Of a DNA stretch of 64,000 nucleotides, positions 28,248 to 46,218 are shown one piece after another (the first letter of the stretch is position 1; every line of letters begins with the position of its first letter). The DNA comes from a virus. A model generated the notes under the pieces. It had not been told where the DNA came from and ran no database searches. It saw nothing but the letters and a program-made list of their open reading frames with translations. The stretch covers positions 44,709 through 108,708 of IMG/VR virus record IMGVR_UViG_3300034152_000556. One strand, given 5' to 3'. The translations under genes and the position numbers were made by a program.

Positions 28248-29213
28248 TTACAGAACAATTGACATATAGACAGGTTCACCGTCTTGTTCGATGAGGTCAC
28301 CGCCCCCACCAGGAGTCTTAATCATCTTGACCGACACATTTCCATCTCTGTCAAGCTGGCTTACGTTGCTGACATCGATAGAGTTAAGCATTGGCAAGAT
28401 GCTTTCTTGAACCGTAGTTGAGAAGTCTTCAAGAATTTCTTTGACCTCTTCTGGTGTAGCGTCTGATGGAATGCTCGGAAGCACCAGAGCAGACTCTTGT
28501 AGACGACCCGATTTCTTCAAACGAATCATCTCAGCACCATAACAACCACGAATCAATAGTTGCCAATAACGCTGCCAATGCTCTTGCGATGGCATGATCT
28601 CCAAACCAACCGGTACGCCGCCGAACATAATCAGCGCACCAATCTGGCCCGGTACTGGCTCGAATTCAGCCGCAAACTCTTCAAGAGCTTCACGAATTTC
28701 TGGTCTGTCGTAGAAGTCACGTAGGTGTCCACGCGCACGACCACGAAAACCTGGAATTGAACCGATCCAGCGTGTGATACGATCCCAAAGCTTGCCATAG
28801 TCACTCTTTTGACGGAATTGACGATTCAGAAAAGCCTTTCTCAGTTCAACCGGTAGGATATCGTACTCGTTATCCTCACCTCTCAGATAGCCACCCTGAG
28901 ACGCTTCGATACAACATGCATTGTCGAAACGTTTGGTTTTCTTTGCTGAAACAACACCGCTTCCGCTCATAGCATGGTCTTGTGCGCCTTTTCCACGCAC
29001 CATGATGTTTGTAGGGATAATGGCAGGACGCTCAGGATCTTCGTTCTTGAACTCCATCGTACCGTAGTTTGTCGTTCTTTCGAACTTCAAAGAGGATGGC
29101 GATGCTACATTACCCCTCGCATCACCAACAATCGGTACAACAGTCATCTCGTTGACGATCTGAGCTTCGCCAACACCGATGTTATTGAATCTGAATTTCT
29201 CGAAGATTTTCAT
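28248..29213 (-). CDS. ARPP (DUF6569/ARPP-1 or ARPP-2)-like protein
   Basis: Recognised pattern Q...MTVVP...N....PAII....GAQDH...CIE..Q...LW..I...F.PVPGQIGA....G...GLE..P....W..L...Y; not database-verified. Confidence 0.55.
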   Translation of the reverse strand: MKIFEKFRFNNIGVGEAQIVNEMTVVPIVGDARGNVASPSSLKFERTTNYGTMEFKNEDPERPAIIPTNIMVRGKGAQDHAMSGSGVVSAKKTKRFDNACCIEASQGGYLRGEDNEYDILPVELRKAFLNRQFRQKSDYGKLWDRITRWIGSIPGFRGRARGHLRDFYDRPEIREALEEFAAEFEPVPGQIGALIMFGGVPVGLEIMPSQEHWQRYWQLLIRGCYGAEMIRLKKSGRLQESALVLPSIPSDATPEEVKEILEDFSTTVQESILPMLNSIDVSNVSQLDRDGNVSVKMIKTPGGGGDLIEQDGEPVYMSIVL

Positions 29214-29217
29214 AAGT

Positions 29218-30756
29218 TTATCCTCCTATAAGCTTTCGATATTTACTGACCAAAAGTTTTCTGACCATACCTGTATTTTCAATCATACGATTGAAGATCA
29301 GCTCGGTCTCCAAGTACTTGTAGTTTTCGACAGGCATTGGGTCTACACCTTCAGCCAGCTTTCTGCCAGTTCCCTTTTTCGCATCAGCGGAAAACACAGG
29401 GTTAATATGGAGAAGTTCAAACTCGTACCCTGTGTCTTGGAAATGTTGATAAGCTTTGTCAAACATTCCCTTTACGGCGTTTTCGTAACCGTCTGAAAAT
29501 ACGACGATCTTTTTGGCTCCTGTTAGAACAGCGTCTACCAAGCCTCTCCATAGAGGTGAACCACCAGCAGGGTAAACCACTTGATGTGACCCTTCTTTAA
29601 TCACCGCTCCACCAACATAGATTATGTCTTTCACGTTATCCAATGTTGATATAATTGAAAGCGATGTCAAAAATGGGTGCAGTGGTCTTTCCTTACTACC
29701 TTGCATCGAGTGCGAAGCATCGAGAATACATACACATTCACCAATGTCGATCTTATCGATCTTTGCACCTTGCTTGTCGATTGCATCAGAGACTTTGTCG
29801 AGGTCTTTCTTTCCACCGTTTGCAATCTGATGGTAGAAGTACTTCCACAAATCGTACAAGTCCTGTTTTTCATAATCGACTTTCACTTTGGCTCCGGCCT
29901 TCTTGCTTGCTGTTTGCATTTGCAGCTTTTCACGATCACTCATTTTTGATTTTTCGTATACATCTTTCAAAGGTATGTTCACTTTGTAAAGGTTACGAAA
30001 ACCAACAACGGTTCTCATAGGCATACCCTTCATAAGGGTTCGAAATGCATCGACATCGTTGGCGATTGCTGCCTGTTTAAGCTTTTGGTATTGATCTATT
30101 TTTGGATAGTGGTAGGTGATATCACTAGCAACCGTATCCACGCCAAACAGATGCCACATGACAGGCTGTGCGCCACTTTGATAACGACCGATGTACTTTC
30201 TGAACAAGGCTTCGTCTCCATTCAGAACTTTGAACAGTGTTTGTTTGCCAAGGGCATGTCTCACGAGACGTTTCATTTTACCCTTGTAGTTCACTGCCAG
30301 TGCATCGGTTTCTTTTGGCGGACGGTTGAAAATGTACTCAAGAATCAACTTACGTGTACGAGCGTTGTTGACTCTCTTTGCGTTTGAGTCCGCACCAGCC
30401 AGAATCAGAAGGTTTTTCATAGCGTCTGGCACTTTTTCTTTGGCAAGATTGTGGTAGATGACCCTGCGTTCAAAATCAGAATCGAGCAGTGTGTCTTCAA
30501 CAACCAAATCTTTACCGGAACCCGTTGGCGCAGGGTTCGACAAGAGCATATGTGTCATCATACCCTTGCTGAATCGCGTTCCGTTCAACAGCATGGTCAG
30601 AGCGAACAGCACACGGTCATACTGAAACAACCCGTTCCACATCTCAAAAACACGATTGAATTGCGCGTCTTTTCCTTCGTAATAGGCTCCCTTCGGTACG
30701 TATTGAAGGATTCCACTGTCAATCTTTGTAACTGATTTTGTCACTGATTTCGCCAT
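29218..30756 (-). CDS. Ro60/TROVE-like protein: helical N-terminal region plus C-terminal vWA (MIDAS) domain
   Basis: vWA MIDAS DASHS...SDG clearly present. About 340-aa basic, helical-looking N-terminal region; 512-aa size and architecture match Ro60/Rsr. TROVE identity is inferred. Confidence 0.55.
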   Translation of the reverse strand: MAKSVTKSVTKIDSGILQYVPKGAYYEGKDAQFNRVFEMWNGLFQYDRVLFALTMLLNGTRFSKGMMTHMLLSNPAPTGSGKDLVVEDTLLDSDFERRVIYHNLAKEKVPDAMKNLLILAGADSNAKRVNNARTRKLILEYIFNRPPKETDALAVNYKGKMKRLVRHALGKQTLFKVLNGDEALFRKYIGRYQSGAQPVMWHLFGVDTVASDITYHYPKIDQYQKLKQAAIANDVDAFRTLMKGMPMRTVVGFRNLYKVNIPLKDVYEKSKMSDREKLQMQTASKKAGAKVKVDYEKQDLYDLWKYFYHQIANGGKKDLDKVSDAIDKQGAKIDKIDIGECVCILDASHSMQGSKERPLHPFLTSLSIISTLDNVKDIIYVGGAVIKEGSHQVVYPAGGSPLWRGLVDAVLTGAKKIVVFSDGYENAVKGMFDKAYQHFQDTGYEFELLHINPVFSADAKKGTGRKLAEGVDPMPVENYKYLETELIFNRMIENTGMVRKLLVSKYRKLIGG

Positions 30757-30835
30757 CTTACAATCCTCCTCTTAAAATTTCGACGTAGGACCCTGATAGC
30801 CAATTTTTTCGGATGAAACAAAAATTAGCCATTCA

Positions 30836-30917
30836 GTCTTAGTCGAGTGAATGGTGGTAGGTGTGGCTCATTGATTATTAGTAAATCTGAAGCCACACCA
30901 AGTCCATAAACTAAGAC
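30836..30917 (-). ncRNA. Array unit 6: carrier-helix RNA with short AU-rich insert
   Basis: GTCTTAGT..ATGG-ACTT-GGTGTGGCT-TCAG...AGCCACACC-TACCA-CCAT..ACTAAGAC. Confidence 0.6.
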
Positions 30918-31002
30918 GACATCAATTCGTGATAGAAGGTCGCGGAGACGCTTAGCGACTCCCCACCATCTTCACGGTCAACGCCGCCGTGCATACTGGT
31001 GT

Positions 31003-31093
31003 GGGGTGAGGTGAGTGTACCTCACAGGACGCCGTGCTAATCTAGCGTTGGCGCCCAGTGCAAACCTGAGCGGAAGATACACTCAGTCACCCC
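31003..31093 (-). ncRNA. Array unit 5: carrier-helix RNA with hairpin insert (possible UUG anticodon-like loop)
   Basis: GGGGTG-ACT-GAGTGTAT-CTTCCG...GTACACTC-ACCT-CACCCC; insert hairpin CGCTCAG-GTTTGCA-CTGGGCG. Confidence 0.55.
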
Positions 31094-31102
31094 GAGAAGT
31101 AA

Positions 31103-31229
31103 GCGAGAGTAGCAATGTAGCGTGTTGTGTTTGACCATCCCCCCGTAGGTGGGGGGAGTAGGACTCGAACCTACAGTGTCATGCTCCCAATGCATGTGTC
31201 TTTTCCTGAAACCACATTAAGTCTCTCGC
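31103..31229 (-). ncRNA. Array unit 4: carrier-helix RNA with tRNA-Pro(UGG)-like anticodon arm and T arm
   Basis: GCGAGAG-ACTT-AATGTGGT...CATGC-ATTGGGA-GCATG...GTAGG-TTCGAGT-CCTAC, extra hairpin TCCCCCC/GGGGGGA...GCTACATT-GCTA-CTCTCGC. Confidence 0.75.
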
Positions 31230-31271
31230 AAATTGTGAATACGGGGTGATCAGGCCCCGGGGCTTTAATAA

Positions 31272-31367
31272 GGGAGATAGAATATGTAGCTTGTGTGATA
31301 CTTGTACCTGTCAATGGTAGGTACGAGAGTTACAGTCTCGTTATCTGAAACTACATAAAGTTCTCCC
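31272..31367 (-). ncRNA. Array unit 3: carrier-helix RNA with tRNA-Tyr(GUA)-like anticodon stem-loop
   Basis: GGGAGA-ACTT-TATGTAGT...CGAGA-CTGTAAC-TCTCG...GCTACATA-TTCTA-TCTCCC. Confidence 0.7.
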
Positions 31368-31377
31368 GAAAAAACAA

Positions 31378-31481
31378 AGTGGAGTAGCAATGTACTAAGA
31401 TGGGACTTGAACCCACAACATACTGTTTATAAGACAGTTGCTCTACCAGTTGAGCTACGGAAAGCACATTTAGTCTCCACT
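31378..31481 (-). ncRNA. Array unit 2: carrier-helix RNA with tRNA-Ile(UAU)-like D, anticodon and T arms; no acceptor stem or CCA
   Basis: AGTGGAG-ACTA-AATGTGCT...TA-GCTC-AACTGGTA-GAGC-A-ACTGT-CTTATAA-ACAGT..GTGGG-TTCAAGT-CCCAT...AGTACATT-GCTA-CTCCACT. Confidence 0.8.
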
Positions 31482-31489
31482 GAAAAAAG

Positions 31490-31600
31490 AAAGGTAGTGA
31501 GAAATGTAGCTGTAAGGCGGATTTGAACCGCGTCTCTCCTTGGGCATAGGAGTGATGTACCAAACATCACTGAAACAGAAACTACATTAAGTCTACCTTT
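31490..31600 (-). ncRNA. Array unit 1: carrier-helix RNA with tRNA-Gly(GCC)-like D, anticodon and T arms; no acceptor stem or CCA
   Basis: AAAGGTAG-ACTT-AATGTAGT...GATG-TTTGGTA-CATC..CTCCT-ATGCCCA-AGGAG..GCGG-TTCAAAT-CCGC...GCTACATT-TCTCA-CTACCTTT. Confidence 0.75.
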
Positions 31601-31645
31601 ATAATTGTAAAAAATTAAGCGTCAGAAATTATTACTATTTGTAAT

Positions 31646-31660
31646 TAATATATATAGATG
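31646..31660 (-). promoter_or_regulatory. Candidate phage promoter motif CATCTATATATATTA (copy 1)
   Basis: Identical 15-mer at 46204-46218; lies about 45 nt upstream of the first RNA unit. Confidence 0.5.
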
Positions 31661-31676
31661 TGTGTTTTATAAATGA

Positions 31677-31934
31677 TTAGGTCAAATCGAGTTTGACAGG
31701 TGTTCGATAGTCATCTAGGTCCAATAATAGCTTTTTTCCCTCGTAGCTGTCAAGAGCATTTTTAATTAAATTTTTCGCACTAGATGGCATCATGGGGTCA
31801 GTCTTTAAAAGCTGAATCCCACCCTTGAAAGAAATCGAAACACCATCTGCTGTTTCACTTACATCAAGCATTTCTGATCTGTCAACAGTTAAATTAAAAC
31901 TGCCATTTTTTCTTGTAATCACTAAATCAGCCAT
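31677..31934 (-). CDS. Hypothetical protein
   Basis: ORF with RBS; no motif. Confidence 0.55.
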   Translation of the reverse strand: MADLVITRKNGSFNLTVDRSEMLDVSETADGVSISFKGGIQLLKTDPMMPSSAKNLIKNALDSYEGKKLLLDLDDYRTPVKLDLT

Positions 31935-31938
31935 TCGT

Positions 31939-32541
31939 TCATTCCTCTCCTAAATGATATTTAATGGTAGGTATGATTCTTTTTGATTTTTCACGAAACC
32001 ACTGAATCATATTTGTACGTGTATTTGTTCCAAGAAATTGTGTTATCATCCCGTTATAGTTGAACGAATCAATCTGATCTTCAATTTCTAGTATAATATT
32101 GTTCTCACTTTTTTCGATGAAAGTGTCCAAATCTTTCGGGAAACGATCCGTAACAAATTTCCAAACTCTCACTAAAAAATCCTCGTGATCATATTCGTAG
32201 AATTTTACAAATTCATAAAACTCTTCAATTTCTTGTTCACTAGTAAAATCTATGTTTTCATTAAACTCAAAATCATAAATTTCATTTACTTTTTCCATCA
32301 TTGCAATGCAAAGCATCTTTTGTTTTTCATAATCATTTTCTCTTTGCATTATATCAAAAACGCTAAGAAATTCATTTTTGAAATCGTCTTTACCCATAGC
32401 ACTAACAATAATTTGAAAATAATATTGCCTTAGCGCATCTTCCTCAGCGAGTTCATCCTCTTGATAATCATCTAAATCCTCTTCTGGTAGTGGGAGTGAA
32501 TTCCCAAGAAGAATCTTAGTTTGTGCGTCAATCTCGAACAT
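31939..32541 (-). CDS. Acidic hypothetical protein
   Basis: Coupled to upstream gene; no motif. Confidence 0.6.
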   Translation of the reverse strand: MFEIDAQTKILLGNSLPLPEEDLDDYQEDELAEEDALRQYYFQIIVSAMGKDDFKNEFLSVFDIMQRENDYEKQKMLCIAMMEKVNEIYDFEFNENIDFTSEQEIEEFYEFVKFYEYDHEDFLVRVWKFVTDRFPKDLDTFIEKSENNIILEIEDQIDSFNYNGMITQFLGTNTRTNMIQWFREKSKRIIPTIKYHLGEE

Positions 32542-34434: not shown

Positions 34435-37400
34435 TTATCTTGTTAACATAAGTGAAACAAAATATGAATTCAATAAATCTTTAGCTGGTGATATTTTTGC
34501 TTCACGATATTTTGCTGACCCTTTCTCGATGATTTCAGAAATGATTTCATCTCTTGTTATGTAATCATCGCTTAATGGCCCCATCATTTCAGCTAATGTG
34601 TTTACACAGTTGTATGAAATAAATGCATAAGTGTCAGCTTCACCGACTCTCTGACCTCCACCTCTTCTTTTTCCAGCTGTTGGTTGTGCGGTTTTACCAG
34701 CTGTTGGTCCTGTGCTTCTACCATAAATCTTGGATTCACCAAGATGTTCAAGTTTACCAATATACATATAACCAATTGGTATCTCTCTAAATGTTGTTGT
34801 ATTAAATTCAGGCAATCGAAGCTTATACCCTGTTTTTAAACCAACAACCGACAGAGCTTTCTTAATATCATTGTGGTTTGGTGCTTTAAAAGGTGGGATA
34901 ATAATAGGAAAAAACCCACTCTTCTTTGTTCTCTCAACGAACTCATTAAATTTCACCCCTGATAATTTTTCTATGTTTGCCAGCATAGATAGAGTCGTTT
35001 TTTTGTTCTTACTTTTATCGAGATACTGATAAACTTTTTTCAATAAATCAATGATTTTAGCTTTTGTTAAATTTGGTAACATTAAACCAAGCTGTCTTGC
35101 AATTAACCCACAGTACGTCTCGTATACTTGCCCCATGTTCATTCTACCAATAATTCCAAGTGGATTCATCACCATATCAAGGGTTCCGAACGGTGTTCGC
35201 GGCATCAAGTTGTCTTTCTCAAGTAGCGAAATAATACCTTTGTTACCATGACGATTACAAAGTTTATCACCAAGACCAATTCTTAGCTCTTGTTCAATTT
35301 TAAATTTGACCAGAACACCTTTTATGCTTTCGCCCATGATTTTAAATTTCTCTTTTGGTGGCTTATCATGTCTTTTATTGGTACGTTTGATTAGGCTTTC
35401 GATTTCTGGAAAAGTGTTTTCTGGCATATTGGAGAAAACCTCAATGTCAACAATTGTACCGCCAGGACTTTTCTTTATAAATTGACCAGATTGAATATCT
35501 GTATCATCGTCTTCTTCAAATCCAATGAGTTGTTCAATCTCACCAACAGTCTTCCTCAATAGTGGTTCACCCTTTTCTAGTTTGTCACCAATCTTTGCAA
35601 TAAAAACTAATCGATCATTTTCTGATATTAAAACCTCTTCTTCAATGCCGTGGAGTGATGTCAAACTATCACTTTCAACTAATCTCTCATTGATAACAAT
35701 GCCATCTTCAAAGTTATATCCCTTATATGGCATGAACCCAACTAACAAAGGTCTACCCAAAGCGATAGAACCAGATGCCATACACGCACCCTCTGCAACA
35801 ATATCACCTTTCTTTACAGATTGGCCGGTTTTAACAGTTGGTTTAAAAACACTCAGAGTGTTTTTTCCTGACCCTGATCTAAGATGCATGGGTGTTATAT
35901 CGACAACATCTTTCTTACCAGCAGCGCATTTCATTGTTATTTTATCAATAGTTATTTTATCAATCTTACCGGTGCAAGGTGCTCTTTTGATAAAGTTGTC
36001 TGAAAGAACGTTTGTCAAAATAGATTCATATCCAGATTGAACAACAGGGGGTTGTGGGTTTTTCAACGGAAGCATTTGTTTTGCTTGATTTGTTATCATA
36101 ATAACACGAGCACCATCATTGTTTTCAAGAAATGGTGTCATAACAGAACTGGTTGATAACATACCAGTACCCTCATCGTCACTTATTTTTTTAGCTTGAA
36201 ACATACCACGAGATGATGTGATCAATGCATCAACCGTAAGCTGTTGCACAATACCAATATTGCCGCTTTCAGGTGTGTCTAATGGGTCAATATTTCCAAA
36301 GTATGTATCATGTATATTACGACTTGCATTATCAATAGACCTCTTATCAGGTATGCCACCAACTTGCTTTCCAACGGGTGAGATTCTTGTGATCGATGAC
36401 ATCTCTTCAATCGGATTTGCATATTCCATGCTCATTGAAAGCTCGGTCATTTGAAAGTCTTTCATTACCTTGGTCGGTACAATTGCTAGCTGAGCTTCAT
36501 CATTTCCACCTAATATTTGCTCACGATATGTAGTATATGCTGCTAGAATTTGTTTCTGTGCTAAATGAACAAGAATTTCAGAGTTTCGTATTCTCTGATT
36601 TGTTAGATCGTTTCGAGGAATATAAGTTTTCTTAACAGCCTTATCAGCCATATAAAACATAATATCCTCAAGTTCTGTTGGTTGTTGTTTATTCAGAAGA
36701 ACCTGTCTTGCAACGGGGTCAACAATATTTTGAATCTTCAATTCAATTTGATATGTTGAATTAACACGCCCTGTATGTGCAATGATCAGGTTTTCAAAAT
36801 ATTGCTTCGATGGAAAGTCTCCTTCGATGTGATATTTATCTGGCGTACCATACTGAAAAGAATTAACAATGTATTCTTTTAATTCAGTATTGACATTGTC
36901 AAAAATGACATACTCCTTTCCTCTAATTCTTGCCCAATGCTTTTCACCTTTTGGTCTCTCTGTTGCCATACGATATTTTATACCGTATTTTTTCAATGAT
37001 TGTTCAAAACCAAATGCGAAAAACACCAGAAATGAAAATGGCATTTTATATGTCATGAAAGAATCAAGAAAAGTAACCTTTCTTAGACTCTTAACATTAA
37101 ATCTGAAAGTTGAATATGAACTTTCAAATCTAGCTTCTCCTGGTTTTGGAAATGTAATTGGGTTGCGTATGATCTGATTGATCAAAACCTTTTTCTGACC
37201 GTTAATTCTGAATGTTCCCGTATTTAAATCAATCTTTGGTATTTCAATAGCTACTTGTTGTAATTTTCCAAATTTATCTTTTAAAGTAACTGTTACAATG
37301 CTGATGTCAGATTTTAAGATTTCACCAGCTCTTTGTGGTTTATCACCAATAGATATTGAGTGAAATTTAAGTGGTGGGTCTCGTTTTTCTAAGACTTTAA

Positions 37401-38511
37401 ATGCGTTTGTCAGATCATTTCTGATGTTGGTTTCAAAATCAATTTTTCTTTTTTGAAAAATATGTTCTGGAGATTTATTACCAACCGCAGCTGTTGGATT
37501 ATAAACAGCAACACGCGGGTCTGTCGTAAGACTTATAGTTTTCTCAGGCTTTAATAACTCATCAGAAAAATTCTTACTGATAGCTTTTAGAGCTTTTGTT
37601 GAATTTTTGGACGTAATGCCTTTTGCAATATTTTTTGCACCATCAAGATCGCCGCTTACTCTATAAAGAATTGCTGTTGCGGTGATTTTTTCGATATCAC
37701 TTTTTGTTACATCTCCGCTTGCAACCTTGTTTCTTGTCTCTTCATCGTCTTCTAGAAAATCTGATACCGCACCCTTAACGGCCTCGTCGTTGTCAATATT
37801 TGCTTTAACTGAAGAAACAATTTTGCTACTTGACACTTGTGCTTCAGCTTCGATCTCATCTTCAGTATCCACAGTTTTTATGTTCCTGATATATTGAAGC
37901 ACTCTCCTAAAGGCATAATCCCCGTCTTTAACCATTAAACGATACTTTGCACCATCTGAAGATACTGTTGATAACAACATTGTTTCAAAGAAAAGGTCTT
38001 CTTCTTTTTTCATATCATGAATAATAGGAAACACTTTTCTGTTGATGAAAGTGTTTAAATCTTTCTCAATATCGACGGAATATACCAAAATTTTGTTATA
38101 TTCGTCTGGAAAAAACCTAAAAGCTGACTCCAACGCATTTTTAATCAAATAGCCAGCTCTTTGTCTATATGTTGTTGGTTTCATTCGAGCATCAACAGCT
38201 TGCACATAATTTGATACATCAAAGATTACGTTTCGACCAGTTGGTATTCTTTGTCTGCTTGTGTAAGCTGTTAGCTTATAAGCTTTATAGAGCTTTCTTA
38301 AATCTGATGTTAAAAGAGTGCGTGGTATTTTCGTAAAAGGCACAACAACAATTTGAAAGTCTGCTGGTCTCAAATTAAGCTTTGGTAGATCGTCAATAAG
38401 AGTCGAGTTTTCAGAAAAATAGATTAACGCCGTTGGATTCTTAGGGTCGCGTCGAAAAATCACACCATCAACTACATGTGTGTACTGTCTTAAATTTTTA
38501 AATGGTATCAT
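34435..38511 (-). CDS. rpoB: Multisubunit RNA polymerase beta-like subunit with about 340-aa N-terminal extension
   Basis: FRINGQKKV, DTPESGNIG, GYNFEDGIV, GDKLCNRHGNKG, NPLGIIGRMNMGQ, KLEH, GGQRVGE. Confidence 0.95.
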   Translation of the reverse strand: MIPFKNLRQYTHVVDGVIFRRDPKNPTALIYFSENSTLIDDLPKLNLRPADFQIVVVPFTKIPRTLLTSDLRKLYKAYKLTAYTSRQRIPTGRNVIFDVSNYVQAVDARMKPTTYRQRAGYLIKNALESAFRFFPDEYNKILVYSVDIEKDLNTFINRKVFPIIHDMKKEEDLFFETMLLSTVSSDGAKYRLMVKDGDYAFRRVLQYIRNIKTVDTEDEIEAEAQVSSSKIVSSVKANIDNDEAVKGAVSDFLEDDEETRNKVASGDVTKSDIEKITATAILYRVSGDLDGAKNIAKGITSKNSTKALKAISKNFSDELLKPEKTISLTTDPRVAVYNPTAAVGNKSPEHIFQKRKIDFETNIRNDLTNAFKVLEKRDPPLKFHSISIGDKPQRAGEILKSDISIVTVTLKDKFGKLQQVAIEIPKIDLNTGTFRINGQKKVLINQIIRNPITFPKPGEARFESSYSTFRFNVKSLRKVTFLDSFMTYKMPFSFLVFFAFGFEQSLKKYGIKYRMATERPKGEKHWARIRGKEYVIFDNVNTELKEYIVNSFQYGTPDKYHIEGDFPSKQYFENLIIAHTGRVNSTYQIELKIQNIVDPVARQVLLNKQQPTELEDIMFYMADKAVKKTYIPRNDLTNQRIRNSEILVHLAQKQILAAYTTYREQILGGNDEAQLAIVPTKVMKDFQMTELSMSMEYANPIEEMSSITRISPVGKQVGGIPDKRSIDNASRNIHDTYFGNIDPLDTPESGNIGIVQQLTVDALITSSRGMFQAKKISDDEGTGMLSTSSVMTPFLENNDGARVIMITNQAKQMLPLKNPQPPVVQSGYESILTNVLSDNFIKRAPCTGKIDKITIDKITMKCAAGKKDVVDITPMHLRSGSGKNTLSVFKPTVKTGQSVKKGDIVAEGACMASGSIALGRPLLVGFMPYKGYNFEDGIVINERLVESDSLTSLHGIEEEVLISENDRLVFIAKIGDKLEKGEPLLRKTVGEIEQLIGFEEDDDTDIQSGQFIKKSPGGTIVDIEVFSNMPENTFPEIESLIKRTNKRHDKPPKEKFKIMGESIKGVLVKFKIEQELRIGLGDKLCNRHGNKGIISLLEKDNLMPRTPFGTLDMVMNPLGIIGRMNMGQVYETYCGLIARQLGLMLPNLTKAKIIDLLKKVYQYLDKSKNKKTTLSMLANIEKLSGVKFNEFVERTKKSGFFPIIIPPFKAPNHNDIKKALSVVGLKTGYKLRLPEFNTTTFREIPIGYMYIGKLEHLGESKIYGRSTGPTAGKTAQPTAGKRRGGGQRVGEADTYAFISYNCVNTLAEMMGPLSDDYITRDEIISEIIEKGSAKYREAKISPAKDLLNSYFVSLMLTR

Positions 38512-46203: not shown

Positions 46204-46218
46204 TAATATATATAGATG
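46204..46218 (-). promoter_or_regulatory. Candidate phage promoter motif CATCTATATATATTA (copy 2)
   Basis: Identical to 31646-31660; about 48 nt upstream of the likely start of the 472-aa gene. Confidence 0.5.

What the first reader, a model, noticed from the sequence alone, without database searches (positions are those of the whole stretch)
31103..31600. Payloads are tRNA fragments with four different anticodons and no acceptor end
Seen: unit 31378-31481 has canonical D, anticodon (loop CUUAUAA, UAU = Ile) and T arms. Unit 31490-31600 has D-like, anticodon (GCC = Gly) and T arms. Unit 31103-31229 has anticodon (UGG = Pro) and T arms. Unit 31272-31367 has an isolated anticodon stem-loop (CUGUAAC, GUA = Tyr). 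None can form a 7-bp acceptor stem and none has CCA; the carrier helix takes its place. Established: bacterial YrlA RNAs mimic tRNA but keep the D/T/acceptor elements and attach the Ro-binding stem in place of the anticodon arm, the opposite of what is seen here. Many antiphage effectors (PrrC, RloC, PARIS AriB) are tRNA anticodon-arm nucleases. Inference: these are non-chargeable anticodon decoys or baits, built by grafting tRNA pieces into a common scaffold. Ile-UAU is also an anticodon most bacteria avoid.
Basis: partly seen in the sequence, partly recalled or inferred. Interest (0 to 1): 0.82.

Follow-up and report, generated by a model that had tools for sequence, protein, structure and literature searches.

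The report
Handle-tagged tRNA mimics beside phage Ro60
A large uncultured phage carries a row of small RNAs that share one conserved two-helix handle and display tRNA look-alikes whose anticodon triplets change unusually fast between related phages, directly upstream of a hidden relative of the RNA-binding ring protein Ro60: an undescribed branch of the Ro60/Y-RNA particle.

Summary
The four units exist, all on the minus strand, and are part of a six-unit array (31600-30851). The array lies between a promoter-like 15-mer and a 512-aa gene whose predicted fold is Ro60 (TROVE ring plus vWA). Every unit has the same covarying two-helix carrier. In 91 related loci, 363 of 365 matches to the carrier's 5' motif lie just upstream of this gene.

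The tRNA-like reading holds: U3 scores 52 bits on Rfam tRNA (positions 7-64), U1 25.9 bits, and ARAGORN calls none.

"No acceptor end" is only half right. U1 is a circularly permuted cloverleaf with a sealed 7-bp acceptor hairpin (loop ACCUAC). U2 has a 6-bp hairpin with an ACCA loop. Forty distinct units in relatives are complete tRNAs; 26 have an encoded CCA.

New here: on bodies at least 85% identical, positions 34-36 differ at 48% of sites, against 12-13% in the stems. U33 (91%) and R37 (95%) are kept. In relatives, 41% of the ARAGORN-called tRNAs have A34 anticodons and 25% are UUA, although TAA still ends genes. The loops are therefore selected but probably do not decode.

Best reading: Y-RNA-like partners of a diverged phage Ro60/ARPP module. 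The decoy role is untested. The scan has noted this module in other genomes.

The parts
31646..31660 (-). Promoter-like 15-mer CAUCUAUAUAUAUUA heading the array
   Evidence: Two exact copies in the 108.7-kb contig, here and at 46204-46218. A CTATATATATTAAT-type element precedes the array in the related loci read.
31490..31600 (-). Unit U4: carrier plus a 7-bp hairpin with UUGGU loop, an anticodon arm (loop AUGCCCA at 31541-31547) and a T arm (31516-31532); no acceptor element
   Evidence: Fold -35.3 kcal/mol, z -4.07. Parse. Relatives have first-in-array units of the same build.
31378..31481 (-). Unit U3: carrier plus canonical D arm, anticodon arm (CUUAUAA at 31427-31433) and T arm (31400-31416); the acceptor is replaced by carrier helix 2 and there is no CCA
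   Evidence: Rfam tRNA 52.3 bits, model positions 7-64. Alignment A3 with homologous units that keep the acceptor and CCA.
31272..31367 (-). Unit U2: carrier plus a 4-bp closing stem GAUA/UAUC, an anticodon-like hairpin (CUGUAAC at 31329-31335) and a 6-bp hairpin with loop ACCAUUGAC (31304-31324); no T arm
   Evidence: Fold -27.5 kcal/mol, z -3.74. Coordinates checked.
31103..31229 (-). Unit U1: circularly permuted cloverleaf opened in the D loop; anticodon arm (AUUGGGA at 31185-31191), T arm (31158-31174) and a sealed 7-bp acceptor hairpin with loop ACCUAC (31138-31157)
   Evidence: Fold -47 kcal/mol, z -4.08, with GAC/GUC closing the junction. Rfam tRNA 25.9 bits. 7 of 7 pairs. Coordinates checked.
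31003..31093 (-). Unit U5: variant carrier (GGGGUGACUGAGUGUA...UACACUCACCUCACCCC) with a GC-rich, non-tRNA payload
   Evidence: Fold -46.4 kcal/mol, z -5.6.
30908..31002 (-). 95-nt spacer that folds as a long imperfect hairpin, without a carrier
   Evidence: Fold -39 kcal/mol, z -3.49.
30851..30907 (-). Unit U6: carrier with a short payload, a 4-bp stem and the 7-nt loop UACUAAU
   Evidence: nhmmer match to the carrier 5' motif. Fold z -5.05. First row of alignment A2.
30757..30850 (-). 5' leader of the Ro60-like gene, with a hairpin and the AAAAAUUGG...ACGUCGAAA element that recurs in relatives
   Evidence: z -2.45, weak.
29218..30756 (-). 512-aa Ro60-like protein (TROVE-type helical ring plus vWA with a MIDAS motif)
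   Evidence: AF2 model pLDDT 83. The top 13 Foldseek PDB matches are all Ro60. VIA-align Z 12.5-16.1 over about 410 residues for ten Ro60 entries; vWA-only matches follow at Z about 10. DxSxS...SDGYEN is conserved. No Pfam, PHROG or PDB sequence match.
28248..29213 (-). 321-aa ARPP-1 domain protein, the constant downstream partner
   Evidence: Pfam PF20208, E 6.8e-25. Present downstream in 72 of 72 loci with room for it. A fused Ro60-like+ARPP protein exists, P0252.

Best explanation
The four units belong to a six-unit, probably polycistronic, array of Y-RNA-like small RNAs. They are the likely partners of a strongly diverged phage Ro60 protein encoded directly downstream, together with its constant ARPP-1 partner.

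Each RNA has two modules. The first is a carrier: an outer stem, an internal loop with a near-invariant GACU, an inner helix, and then a UUUCAGA-type junction. By analogy with the Ro60-binding stem of Y RNAs, I infer that the carrier docks the RNA on the Ro60-like ring.

The second module is a tRNA mimic, built in several topologies:
- D-anticodon-T with the carrier in place of the acceptor (U3, U4).
- A circularly permuted cloverleaf with a sealed acceptor hairpin (U1).
- The same without a T arm (U2).
- In relatives, whole tRNAs with CCA, or bare anticodon stem-loops.

The part under diversifying pressure is the anticodon triplet. It is displayed in a conserved 7-nt loop frame and often takes values that decoding tRNAs avoid. 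I therefore infer that the particle presents anticodon arms to something that recognises them, rather than reading codons. The most likely target is a host tRNA-directed factor, such as an anticodon nuclease or a tRNA-modifying or tRNA-binding enzyme.

Shown here: the anatomy, the covariation, the exclusive co-location with the gene, the Ro60 fold, and the fast-changing triplets. Inferred: binding to Ro60, and the decoy or sponge role.
For: Carrier. RNAalifold on 46 short units predicts a 5-bp and a 9-bp helix, and 13 of 14 pairs show compensatory changes. 96.4% of cells are paired, against 71% in shuffles; there are 189 double changes against 53; 0 of 500 shuffles reach the observed values; slid controls give 32-45% paired.

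Link to the gene. A sequence-only profile of the carrier's 5' motif gives 363 matches, all on the gene strand within 2.2 kb upstream of the Ro60-like ORF in 91 loci. It gives 2 weak matches elsewhere and none antisense. In the window's own 108.7-kb contig only the array is hit. Of 4 exact-pattern matches in IMG/VR, 3 lie in such arrays.

Protein. The fold is Ro60. ARPP synteny holds in 72 of 72 loci, and a fused form exists.

Payloads. Of 304 distinct units, 95 have a T arm and 92 have both a T arm and an anticodon arm. CCA sits exactly at positions 74-76 in 44 of 92. U33 is kept in 91% and R37 in 95%.

Anticodons. Among bodies at least 85% identical, sites differ at 47.6% in positions 34-36, against 11.6% in the anticodon stem and 13.4% in the T arm. 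47 of 63 such pairs differ in the triplet, and one cluster carries 8 anticodons. Of the 44 ARAGORN calls, 18 have A34 anticodons (AUG, AAU, AUC, AUA, ACU, ACG) and 11 have UUA. TAA still terminates the Ro60-like gene in loci that carry UUA units.

Precedent. Y RNA genes lie next to Ro60 genes and mimic tRNA in bacteria and phages (PMC4201824). Thermus phage phiLo Ro60 binds two Y-like RNAs encoded upstream of its gene (PMC12135203).
Against: There is no binding or expression data.

The Ro60 assignment rests on a predicted fold and a MIDAS motif. Pfam TROVE, PHROGs and PDB sequence or profile searches find nothing.

The 5'-strand Ro60-binding motif of bacterial Y RNAs, GNCGAAN0-1G, is absent from all 304 units. 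Rfam YrlA scores 17.6 bits against a gathering score of 69.

Co-location could reflect co-transcription only.

Many relatives' units are complete tRNAs with an encoded CCA, flanked by a leader-trailer duplex. They could simply be processed into working tRNAs.

The pair counts behind the triplet rates are not phylogenetically independent.

My structure-based partner search separated real from shuffled sequence only moderately: mean score 16.5 against 12.9, and 59% of real cases lie above the 95th percentile of shuffles.
Confidence: 0.6

Rival explanations
1. The carriers are processing cassettes. The 5' leader and 3' trailer of each RNA pair so that a host or phage RNase (RNase III-like, then RNase P, RNase E or exonucleases) excises each payload from the polycistronic early transcript. 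The payloads are then working phage tRNAs and tRNA-derived RNAs. The Ro60-like protein would only be a neighbouring RNA quality-control gene.
For: In relatives, 40 distinct units are complete cloverleafs by ARAGORN, 26 with an encoded CCA followed by AAA(C). The two-helix stem with an internal loop resembles rRNA and T7 RNase III processing stems (established knowledge, not tested here). The array sits behind one promoter-like element.
Against: About two thirds of distinct units (209 of 304) have no T arm, and many carry only a 20-40 nt hairpin. The window's own four tRNA-like units cannot yield a tRNA with a free CCA end. Of the 44 ARAGORN calls, 29 carry A34 or UUA anticodons that decoding systems avoid, and TAA remains a stop. 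Nearly identical bodies carry anticodons of different amino-acid families, which is hard to reconcile with correct charging. The conserved GACU and UUUCAGA sequence is not something RNase III needs. The motif is found only next to this gene.
Confidence: 0.15
2. The displayed anticodon loops are guides rather than decoys. They pair by loop-loop (anticodon-anticodon) or codon-like contacts with particular host tRNAs or mRNAs. This would bring those targets to the Ro60-like ring and an associated nuclease or the ARPP enzyme.
For: The triplet is hypervariable on a constant scaffold, as expected of a specificity module. Bacterial Y RNA tethers Ro60 to PNPase to act on other RNAs (PMC4201824). phiLo Ro60 with its Yrl RNAs forms complexes with host PNPase (PMC12135203).
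Against: Three base pairs give little specificity. No complementary target was sought or found here. Nothing in the data separates this reading from the decoy reading.
Confidence: 0.1
3. The units are relics: a decaying phage tRNA array whose members have lost their acceptor stems, with no present function for the anticodon loops.
For: The window's U3 has lost the acceptor and CCA that its homologues in relatives keep. U4 has a C37 and a 4-bp T stem.
Against: The carrier helices covary strongly. The array architecture is kept across 91 loci whose protein is only 50-61% identical. The loop frame (7 nt, U33, R37) and the stems are conserved while only the triplet runs fast. Neutral decay would erode stems and loop frame alike.
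Confidence: 0.03

Closest known systems
Bacterial and phage YrlA-type Y RNAs with Rsr/Ro60 (Rfam RF02553; Chen et al. 2014, PMC4201824)
   Same: Small RNAs encoded next to a Ro60 gene on the same strand. A terminal stem is formed by the 5' and 3' ends, with a conserved motif on its 5' strand. The second module mimics tRNA, including a sealed acceptor-like stem-loop; in M. smegmatis YrlA that stem-loop is cut by RNase P and receives CCA. Several RNAs occur per locus.
   Different: The conserved motif here is GACU...UUUCAGA, not GNCGAAN0-1G (0 of 304 units). There is no Rfam match (17.6 bits against a gathering score of 69). In YrlA the Ro60 stem replaces the anticodon arm. Here the anticodon arm is kept and is the variable part, and the carrier joins at the acceptor end, at positions 8-9, or inside the D loop. 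Arrays hold 4-8 units, and most units are not tRNA-like. The protein is too diverged for Pfam TROVE and always travels with an ARPP-1 protein.
[quoted passage not shown] 2014, PMC4201824)
   Same: Yrn1 is modelled with a potential anticodon arm with a 5-bp stem. Its T and D arms are oriented differently from YrlA relative to the 5' end. This is the published precedent for the orientation seen in U3 and U4.
   Different: The Yrn1 loop has 6 nt and no variable arm. Its Ro60-binding helix resembles that of metazoan Y RNAs. No arrays and no fast-changing anticodons have been described for it.
Thermus phage phiLo Ro60 with Yrl1 and Yrl2 (PDB 9KOP, 9L5Y; PMC12135203)
   Same: A phage Ro60 with Y-like RNAs encoded directly upstream of its gene. 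It is among the best structural matches of the 512-aa protein (Foldseek E 3.6e-6; VIA Z 14.5-14.8).
   Different: The phiLo RNAs were picked by the CGAA motif and a stem-bulge-stem shape. There are two of them, and no tRNA-like payloads are reported.
Circularly permuted tRNA genes (as in the red alga Cyanidioschyzon merolae; recalled from memory, not re-read here)
   Same: In U1 and U2 the 3' half, with the acceptor 3' strand and ACC(A/U), precedes the acceptor 5' strand, and the two are joined by a loop.
   Different: There the permuted precursor is processed to a normal tRNA through a circular intermediate. Here the break lies in the D loop and is bridged by the conserved carrier, and nothing suggests maturation to a decoding tRNA.
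Phage tRNAs that evade or replace tRNAs hit by anticodon nucleases (e.g. T5 tRNA-Tyr against retron Ec78 PtuAB; mycobacteriophage tRNA arrays; recalled from memory)
   Same: Phage-encoded tRNA-shaped RNAs whose anticodon loops are shaped by conflict with tRNA-targeting defences.
   Different: Those are chargeable, decoding tRNAs. The units here are mostly incomplete, permuted or carry non-decoding anticodons, and they are tied to a Ro60-like protein.

Membership tests
Y RNA, YrlA type (Rfam RF02553) | Encoded adjacent to a Ro60 gene and on the same strand | tested here: met
   363 of 365 carrier-motif matches lie within 2.2 kb upstream of the Ro60-like ORF on its strand. The gene folds as Ro60.
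Y RNA, YrlA type (Rfam RF02553) | The 5' and 3' ends pair into a stem with a conserved internal loop or bulge | tested here: met
   Two covarying helices around a conserved loop.
Y RNA, YrlA type (Rfam RF02553) | Conserved GNCGAAN0-1G on the 5' strand of the Ro60-binding stem (PMC4201824) | tested here: not met
   0 of 304 distinct units, and none in the window's array.
Y RNA, YrlA type (Rfam RF02553) | Score at or above the Rfam gathering threshold | tested here: not met
   Best match 17.6 bits against 69, E 2.9, and it spans two units.
Y RNA, YrlA type (Rfam RF02553) | tRNA-like domain of T arm, acceptor-like stem-loop and D arm, with the Ro60 stem in place of the anticodon arm | tested here: not met
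   T arms and sealed acceptor hairpins are present. However, the anticodon arm is kept, and the carrier joins elsewhere.
Y RNA (any type) | Bound by Ro60 in vivo or in vitro | not testable with these tools
   Needs RIP, CLIP or EMSA.
tRNA (Rfam RF00005 / ARAGORN) | Complete cloverleaf with a 7-bp acceptor stem made from free 5' and 3' ends | tested here: not met
   ARAGORN finds 0 genes in the window and the contig. The Rfam matches are local: positions 7-64 for U3 and 8-63 for U1. This feature is met by 40 distinct units in related loci.
tRNA (Rfam RF00005 / ARAGORN) | T loop UUCRANY and a 7-nt anticodon loop with U33 and R37 | tested here: met
   The T loop is present in U1, U3 and U4. The loop frame is met in U1, U2 and U3; U4 has C37.
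Ro60 / TROVE protein | Helical-repeat ring followed by a vWA domain with a MIDAS motif | tested here: met
   Predicted structure pLDDT 83. Ten Ro60 entries at Z 12.5-16.1 align over about 410 residues spanning both domains. DxSxS and SDG motifs are invariant.
Ro60 / TROVE protein | Sequence match to Pfam TROVE (PF05731) or to solved Ro60 chains | tested here: not met
   No Pfam match for 20 members at E up to 10. No PDB match by sequence or profile. Ten more distant relatives also gave no TROVE match at E up to 0.01.
Circularly permuted tRNA | Acceptor 3' strand plus NCCA precedes the acceptor 5' strand; the break lies elsewhere in the cloverleaf | tested here: met
   U1: T arm, UCCCCCC, ACCUAC, GGGGGGA, UG, GUC, with GAC at the 5' side. 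U2 has the same order without a T arm.
Circularly permuted tRNA | Matured to a normal, chargeable tRNA | not testable with these tools
   Needs RNA end mapping and charging assays.

The most novel reading that the evidence does not exclude
The Ro60-like/ARPP particle is a display platform for a fast-evolving library of anticodon arms. Each phage lineage retunes positions 34-36 of handle-tagged tRNA mimics to match the tRNA-directed weapons, or tRNA-handling enzymes, of its current host. The mimics would act either as protected decoys that soak up anticodon nucleases or as guides that capture particular host tRNAs. This would be a programmable, RNA-based counter-defence built on the Ro60/Y-RNA chassis.
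Probability: 0.3. Interest if true: 0.9.

Novelty: new variant of a known kind. Interest (0 to 1): 0.7.

Why it matters
What the tRNA-like module of bacterial Y RNAs does has been open since 2014. Chen et al. write that the interactors are unknown.

This phage clade offers a natural experiment. The same handle carries tRNA mimics in at least five topologies, next to a Ro60-like gene that Pfam cannot see. The anticodon triplet is the fastest-changing part, and the loop frame around it is conserved. That points to the anticodon arm, not only the elbow, as a working surface of such particles. It also makes the question directly testable with anticodon nucleases, tRNA-modifying enzymes and pull-downs.

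The family is large. The profile search finds 454 cluster representatives at E up to 0.001, with no Pfam coverage in the members I scanned. I found no paper describing the RNAs, so many phage and metagenome annotations miss both the protein and the RNAs.

The complete cloverleafs with CCA but A34 or UUA anticodons would be mis-annotated as suppressor or odd tRNAs by standard pipelines.

Tried and rejected
- Known RNA families. Rfam at the gathering threshold on the whole window, and at E up to 10 on 30000-32500, gave only the tRNA matches plus noise; YrlA scored 17.6 bits. Earlier scan notes suggested a likeness to Dictyostelium Class I RNA handles. That family shares the design of a terminal stem plus an adjacent conserved motif (PMC7919456). 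Our junction UUUCAGA fits only part of that motif (the motif sequence is recalled from memory), and Rfam gave no Class I match, so I do not file it there.
- GenBank phages. blastn found only tRNA-core similarity to U3.
- The protein. Pfam, PHROGs, and PDB sequence and profile searches were all negative.
- RNA repair genes. RtcB (PF01139) and RNA ligase (PF09414) are not found in the contig. The record is only about 35% complete, so this is inconclusive.
- Stop-codon recoding to explain the UUA units. Rejected: in four of the ten UUA-bearing loci examined, TAA terminates the Ro60-like gene at the expected length.
- Sigma-70 promoter and intrinsic terminator scan. No enrichment over shuffles.
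- My first, structure-only unit detector was too loose: 635 candidates outside the arrays. I replaced it with a sequence profile of the 5' motif.
- One of four exact carrier-pattern matches in IMG/VR (L095) is an isolated match without a partner strand or a Ro60-like gene. I take it as chance.
- A look-up of L093 and L095 in held records failed.
Full report
**Observation**

Everything lies on the minus strand. Read 5' to 3', the region 31660-30757 holds, in order:
- a promoter-like 15-mer;
- six units that share one carrier (U4 31600-31490, U3 31481-31378, U2 31367-31272, U1 31229-31103, U5 31093-31003, U6 30907-30851);
- a 95-nt hairpin spacer between U5 and U6 (31002-30908);
- the leader of a 512-aa gene.

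The four units of the finding fold with a terminal two-helix stem, with z-scores of -3.0 to -4.1 against shuffles. ARAGORN calls no tRNA in the window or in the whole 108.7-kb contig. Rfam calls U3 a tRNA at 52.3 bits, but only over model positions 7-64. It gives U1 25.9 bits, below the gathering score, and finds nothing for U4 or U2. So the tRNA-like reading is solid for U3 and marginal for U1. For U4 and U2 it rests on my own parse and on homologues in other loci.

In U1 the T stem is followed directly by UCCCCCC-ACCUAC-GGGGGGA, a 7-bp hairpin whose loop begins ACC. Then come UG and GUC, and GUC pairs with GAC just upstream of the anticodon arm. The minimum-energy fold closes exactly this four-way junction. 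U1 is therefore a complete cloverleaf, circularly permuted, opened in the D loop where the carrier joins, with a sealed acceptor stem.

U2 has the same order without a T arm: a closing stem GAUA/UAUC, the hairpin with loop CUGUAAC, and then GUACCU-ACCAUUGAC-AGGUAC, whose loop starts ACCA.

Only U3 and U4 have the carrier in place of the acceptor.

**The carrier**

The consensus over 304 distinct units is 5' AGAAG|ACUUunUGUAAUUUCAGA ... AUUACAuuUACuA|CUUCU 3'. GAC[U/G] is present in 294 units and the junction motif in 283.

I aligned 46 short units, including U6, with MAFFT. RNAalifold then predicts a 5-bp outer helix and a 9-bp inner helix, and 13 of 14 pairs show compensatory changes. In the pair count:
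- 96.4% of cells are paired, against 71% in shuffles;
- there are 189 double changes, against 53 in shuffles;
- no shuffle of 500 reaches the observed values;
- sliding the partner strand drops pairing to 32-45%.

These units were selected partly on pairing, so the fraction paired is inflated. The variety of pair types is not.

**The neighbour**

The 512-aa protein has no Pfam, PHROG or PDB sequence match. Its homologues are 50-61% identical and keep a vWA MIDAS signature. The AlphaFold model has pLDDT 83. Its 13 best Foldseek matches in the PDB are all Ro60. VIA-align gives Z 12.5-16.1 over about 410 aligned residues for ten Ro60 entries, including Thermus phage phiLo Ro60. The next matches are vWA domains alone, at Z about 10.

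A profile search of 1.84 billion representatives finds 454 relatives at E up to 0.001. I scanned ten of the more distant ones; none matches Pfam TROVE, and one (P0252) is fused to an ARPP-1 domain. In the window the next gene is an ARPP-1 protein. It follows the Ro60-like gene in 72 of 72 loci with room for it. ARPP is a predicted enzyme acting on ribose moieties (PMC9503650).

**The link between RNA and gene**

I fetched 91 related loci. A sequence-only profile of the carrier's 5' motif gives 363 matches, all on the gene strand within 2.2 kb upstream of the Ro60-like ORF. It gives two weak matches elsewhere and none antisense. In the window's own contig only the array is hit. Arrays mostly hold 4-6 units.

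An exact-pattern scan of IMG/VR gave four stretches. Two are arrays next to the gene. One is an array cut off at the end of the stored stretch. One is an isolated match that I take as chance.

**The payloads across the family**

- Of 304 distinct units, 209 have no T arm; most of these are single hairpins of 20-40 nt.
- Ninety-two have both an anticodon arm and a T arm.
- Among those 92, CCA sits exactly at positions 74-76 in 44.
- The acceptor takes one of two forms. It can have normal topology: ARAGORN tRNAs in the loci, all inside arrays and 37 inside detected carrier units. Forty of them are distinct, and 26 end in an encoded CCA. Or it can be a hairpin after the T arm whose loop starts NCCA.
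- Alignment A3 shows that the window's U3 is a homologue of such complete units that has lost the acceptor 3' strand and CCA.

**The anticodon loops**

- The loop frame is conserved: U33 in 84 of 92, purine 37 in 87 of 92, and A38 in 72 of 92. Positions 34-36 are close to maximal entropy.
- I compared pairs of payloads whose bodies, loop excluded, are at least 85% identical. Of 63 such pairs, 47 differ in the triplet.
- Per-site differences in those pairs are 47.6% at positions 34-36, about 21-24% at 32-33 and 37-38, 11.6% in the anticodon stem and 13.4% in the T arm.
- One cluster of 18 bodies carries eight anticodons. In A3, L067 and L071 differ in almost nothing but the loop.
- Of the 44 ARAGORN calls, 18 have A34 anticodons (AUG, AAU, AUC, AUA, ACU, ACG) and 11 have UUA. 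In four of the ten UUA-bearing loci examined, TAA ends the Ro60-like gene at the expected length.

Neutral decay is therefore excluded, and ordinary decoding is unlikely. The pairs are not independent, so these rates are descriptive and not a formal test.

**Interpretation**

The closest known system is the Ro60/Y-RNA particle. Bacterial and phage Y RNAs are encoded next to Ro60. They have a terminal Ro60-binding stem and a tRNA-like module with a sealed acceptor-like stem-loop (PMC4201824). phiLo Ro60 binds two Y-like RNAs encoded upstream of its gene (PMC12135203). In YrlA the Ro60 stem replaces the anticodon arm, but Yrn1 of D. radiodurans is modelled with a potential anticodon arm. The orientation seen here therefore has a precedent.

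The units here fail three defining YrlA features: the GNCGAAN0-1G motif (0 of 304), the Rfam score, and the topology. I therefore treat them as working like Y RNAs but not as members of YrlA.

That the carrier binds the Ro60-like ring is an inference from exclusive co-location and analogy. That the anticodon arms act as decoys or sponges for tRNA-directed host factors is a further inference. It is supported only by the fast triplets and the non-decoding anticodon values.

The main rival is that the carriers are leader-trailer processing stems for real tRNAs. The complete units in relatives fit it. It is weakened by the many non-tRNA payloads, the window's own incomplete units, the odd anticodons, and near-identical bodies that carry anticodons of different amino-acid families.

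**Relation to earlier notes**

First-stage notes on this genome had already proposed the Ro60-like protein, the permuted U1 and the repeated 15-mer. Follow-up reports on other genomes describe the same Ro60-like plus ARPP plus handle-RNA module. I tested the fold, the permuted structure and the 15-mer myself.

- the acceptor elements in U1 and U2;
- the family-wide CCA statistics;
- the fast-changing, non-decoding anticodon triplets.

I found no paper that describes these RNAs. The jumbo-phage survey notes only that some jumbo phages carry a ROT/TROVE protein with a tRNA-like partner (PMC7824862).

Noticed in passing
window 31646-31660 and 46204-46218, minus strand: The exact 15-mer CATCTATATATATTA occurs twice in the 108.7-kb contig. 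Both copies are on the minus strand, and one heads the RNA array. A similar CTATATATATTAAT element precedes the arrays in the relatives read. It may be an early promoter of a phage with its own multisubunit RNA polymerase.
   Followed up: partly
P0252 (884 aa): A distant relative of the Ro60-like protein is fused to an ARPP-1/ARPP-2 domain. This supports a functional coupling of the two adjacent genes (window 29218-30756 and 28248-29213).
   Followed up: partly
Related loci, e.g. L049:1873-1936, L007:1922-1985, L016:2143-2209: A second RNA type occurs inside some arrays, without the carrier. It is 57-73 nt long, with 5' GGGGYGU... and 3' ...RCCCC-ACCA. It folds as a rod with a 7-8 bp terminal stem and a free ACCA tail, like an acceptor-stem mimic. 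I found 13 regex matches upstream (about 10 distinct elements; some overlap), against 3 in 318 kb of downstream sequence. The outer stem of window U5 (GGGGUG/CACCCC, followed by ACACCA) is reminiscent of it.
   Followed up: partly
window 30908-31002, minus strand: A GC-rich 95-nt spacer between U5 and U6 folds into a long imperfect hairpin (-39 kcal/mol, z -3.5). It has no carrier motif. Its role is unknown.
   Followed up: no
window 30757-30850, minus strand, and the same position in L002-L011: The leader of the Ro60-like gene keeps an AAAAATTGG(A/C)TAT...ACGT(C/T)G(G/A)AA element and a hairpin before a strong ribosome-binding site. It may be an autoregulatory site.
   Followed up: no
window 34435-38511, minus strand: A 1358-aa ORF matches RNA polymerase Rpb2 domains 3, 6 and 7 (beta-subunit-like). 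The record is a virus contig estimated at 35% complete, so this is probably a jumbo phage with its own multisubunit RNA polymerase.
   Followed up: no
window 31677-31934 and 31939-32541, minus strand: The 85-aa ORF that ends just before the array is present upstream in 61 of 61 loci with room for it, and the 200-aa ORF in 58 loci. Neither has a Pfam or PHROG match. They may belong to the module.
   Followed up: partly
Related loci, ARAGORN tRNAs: The acceptor stems of the complete units are AU-rich and often start inside the conserved CAGA/CUGA junction. Nine of 40 have a C1-A72 mismatch, a feature of bacterial initiator tRNA. This is possibly coincidental.
   Followed up: no
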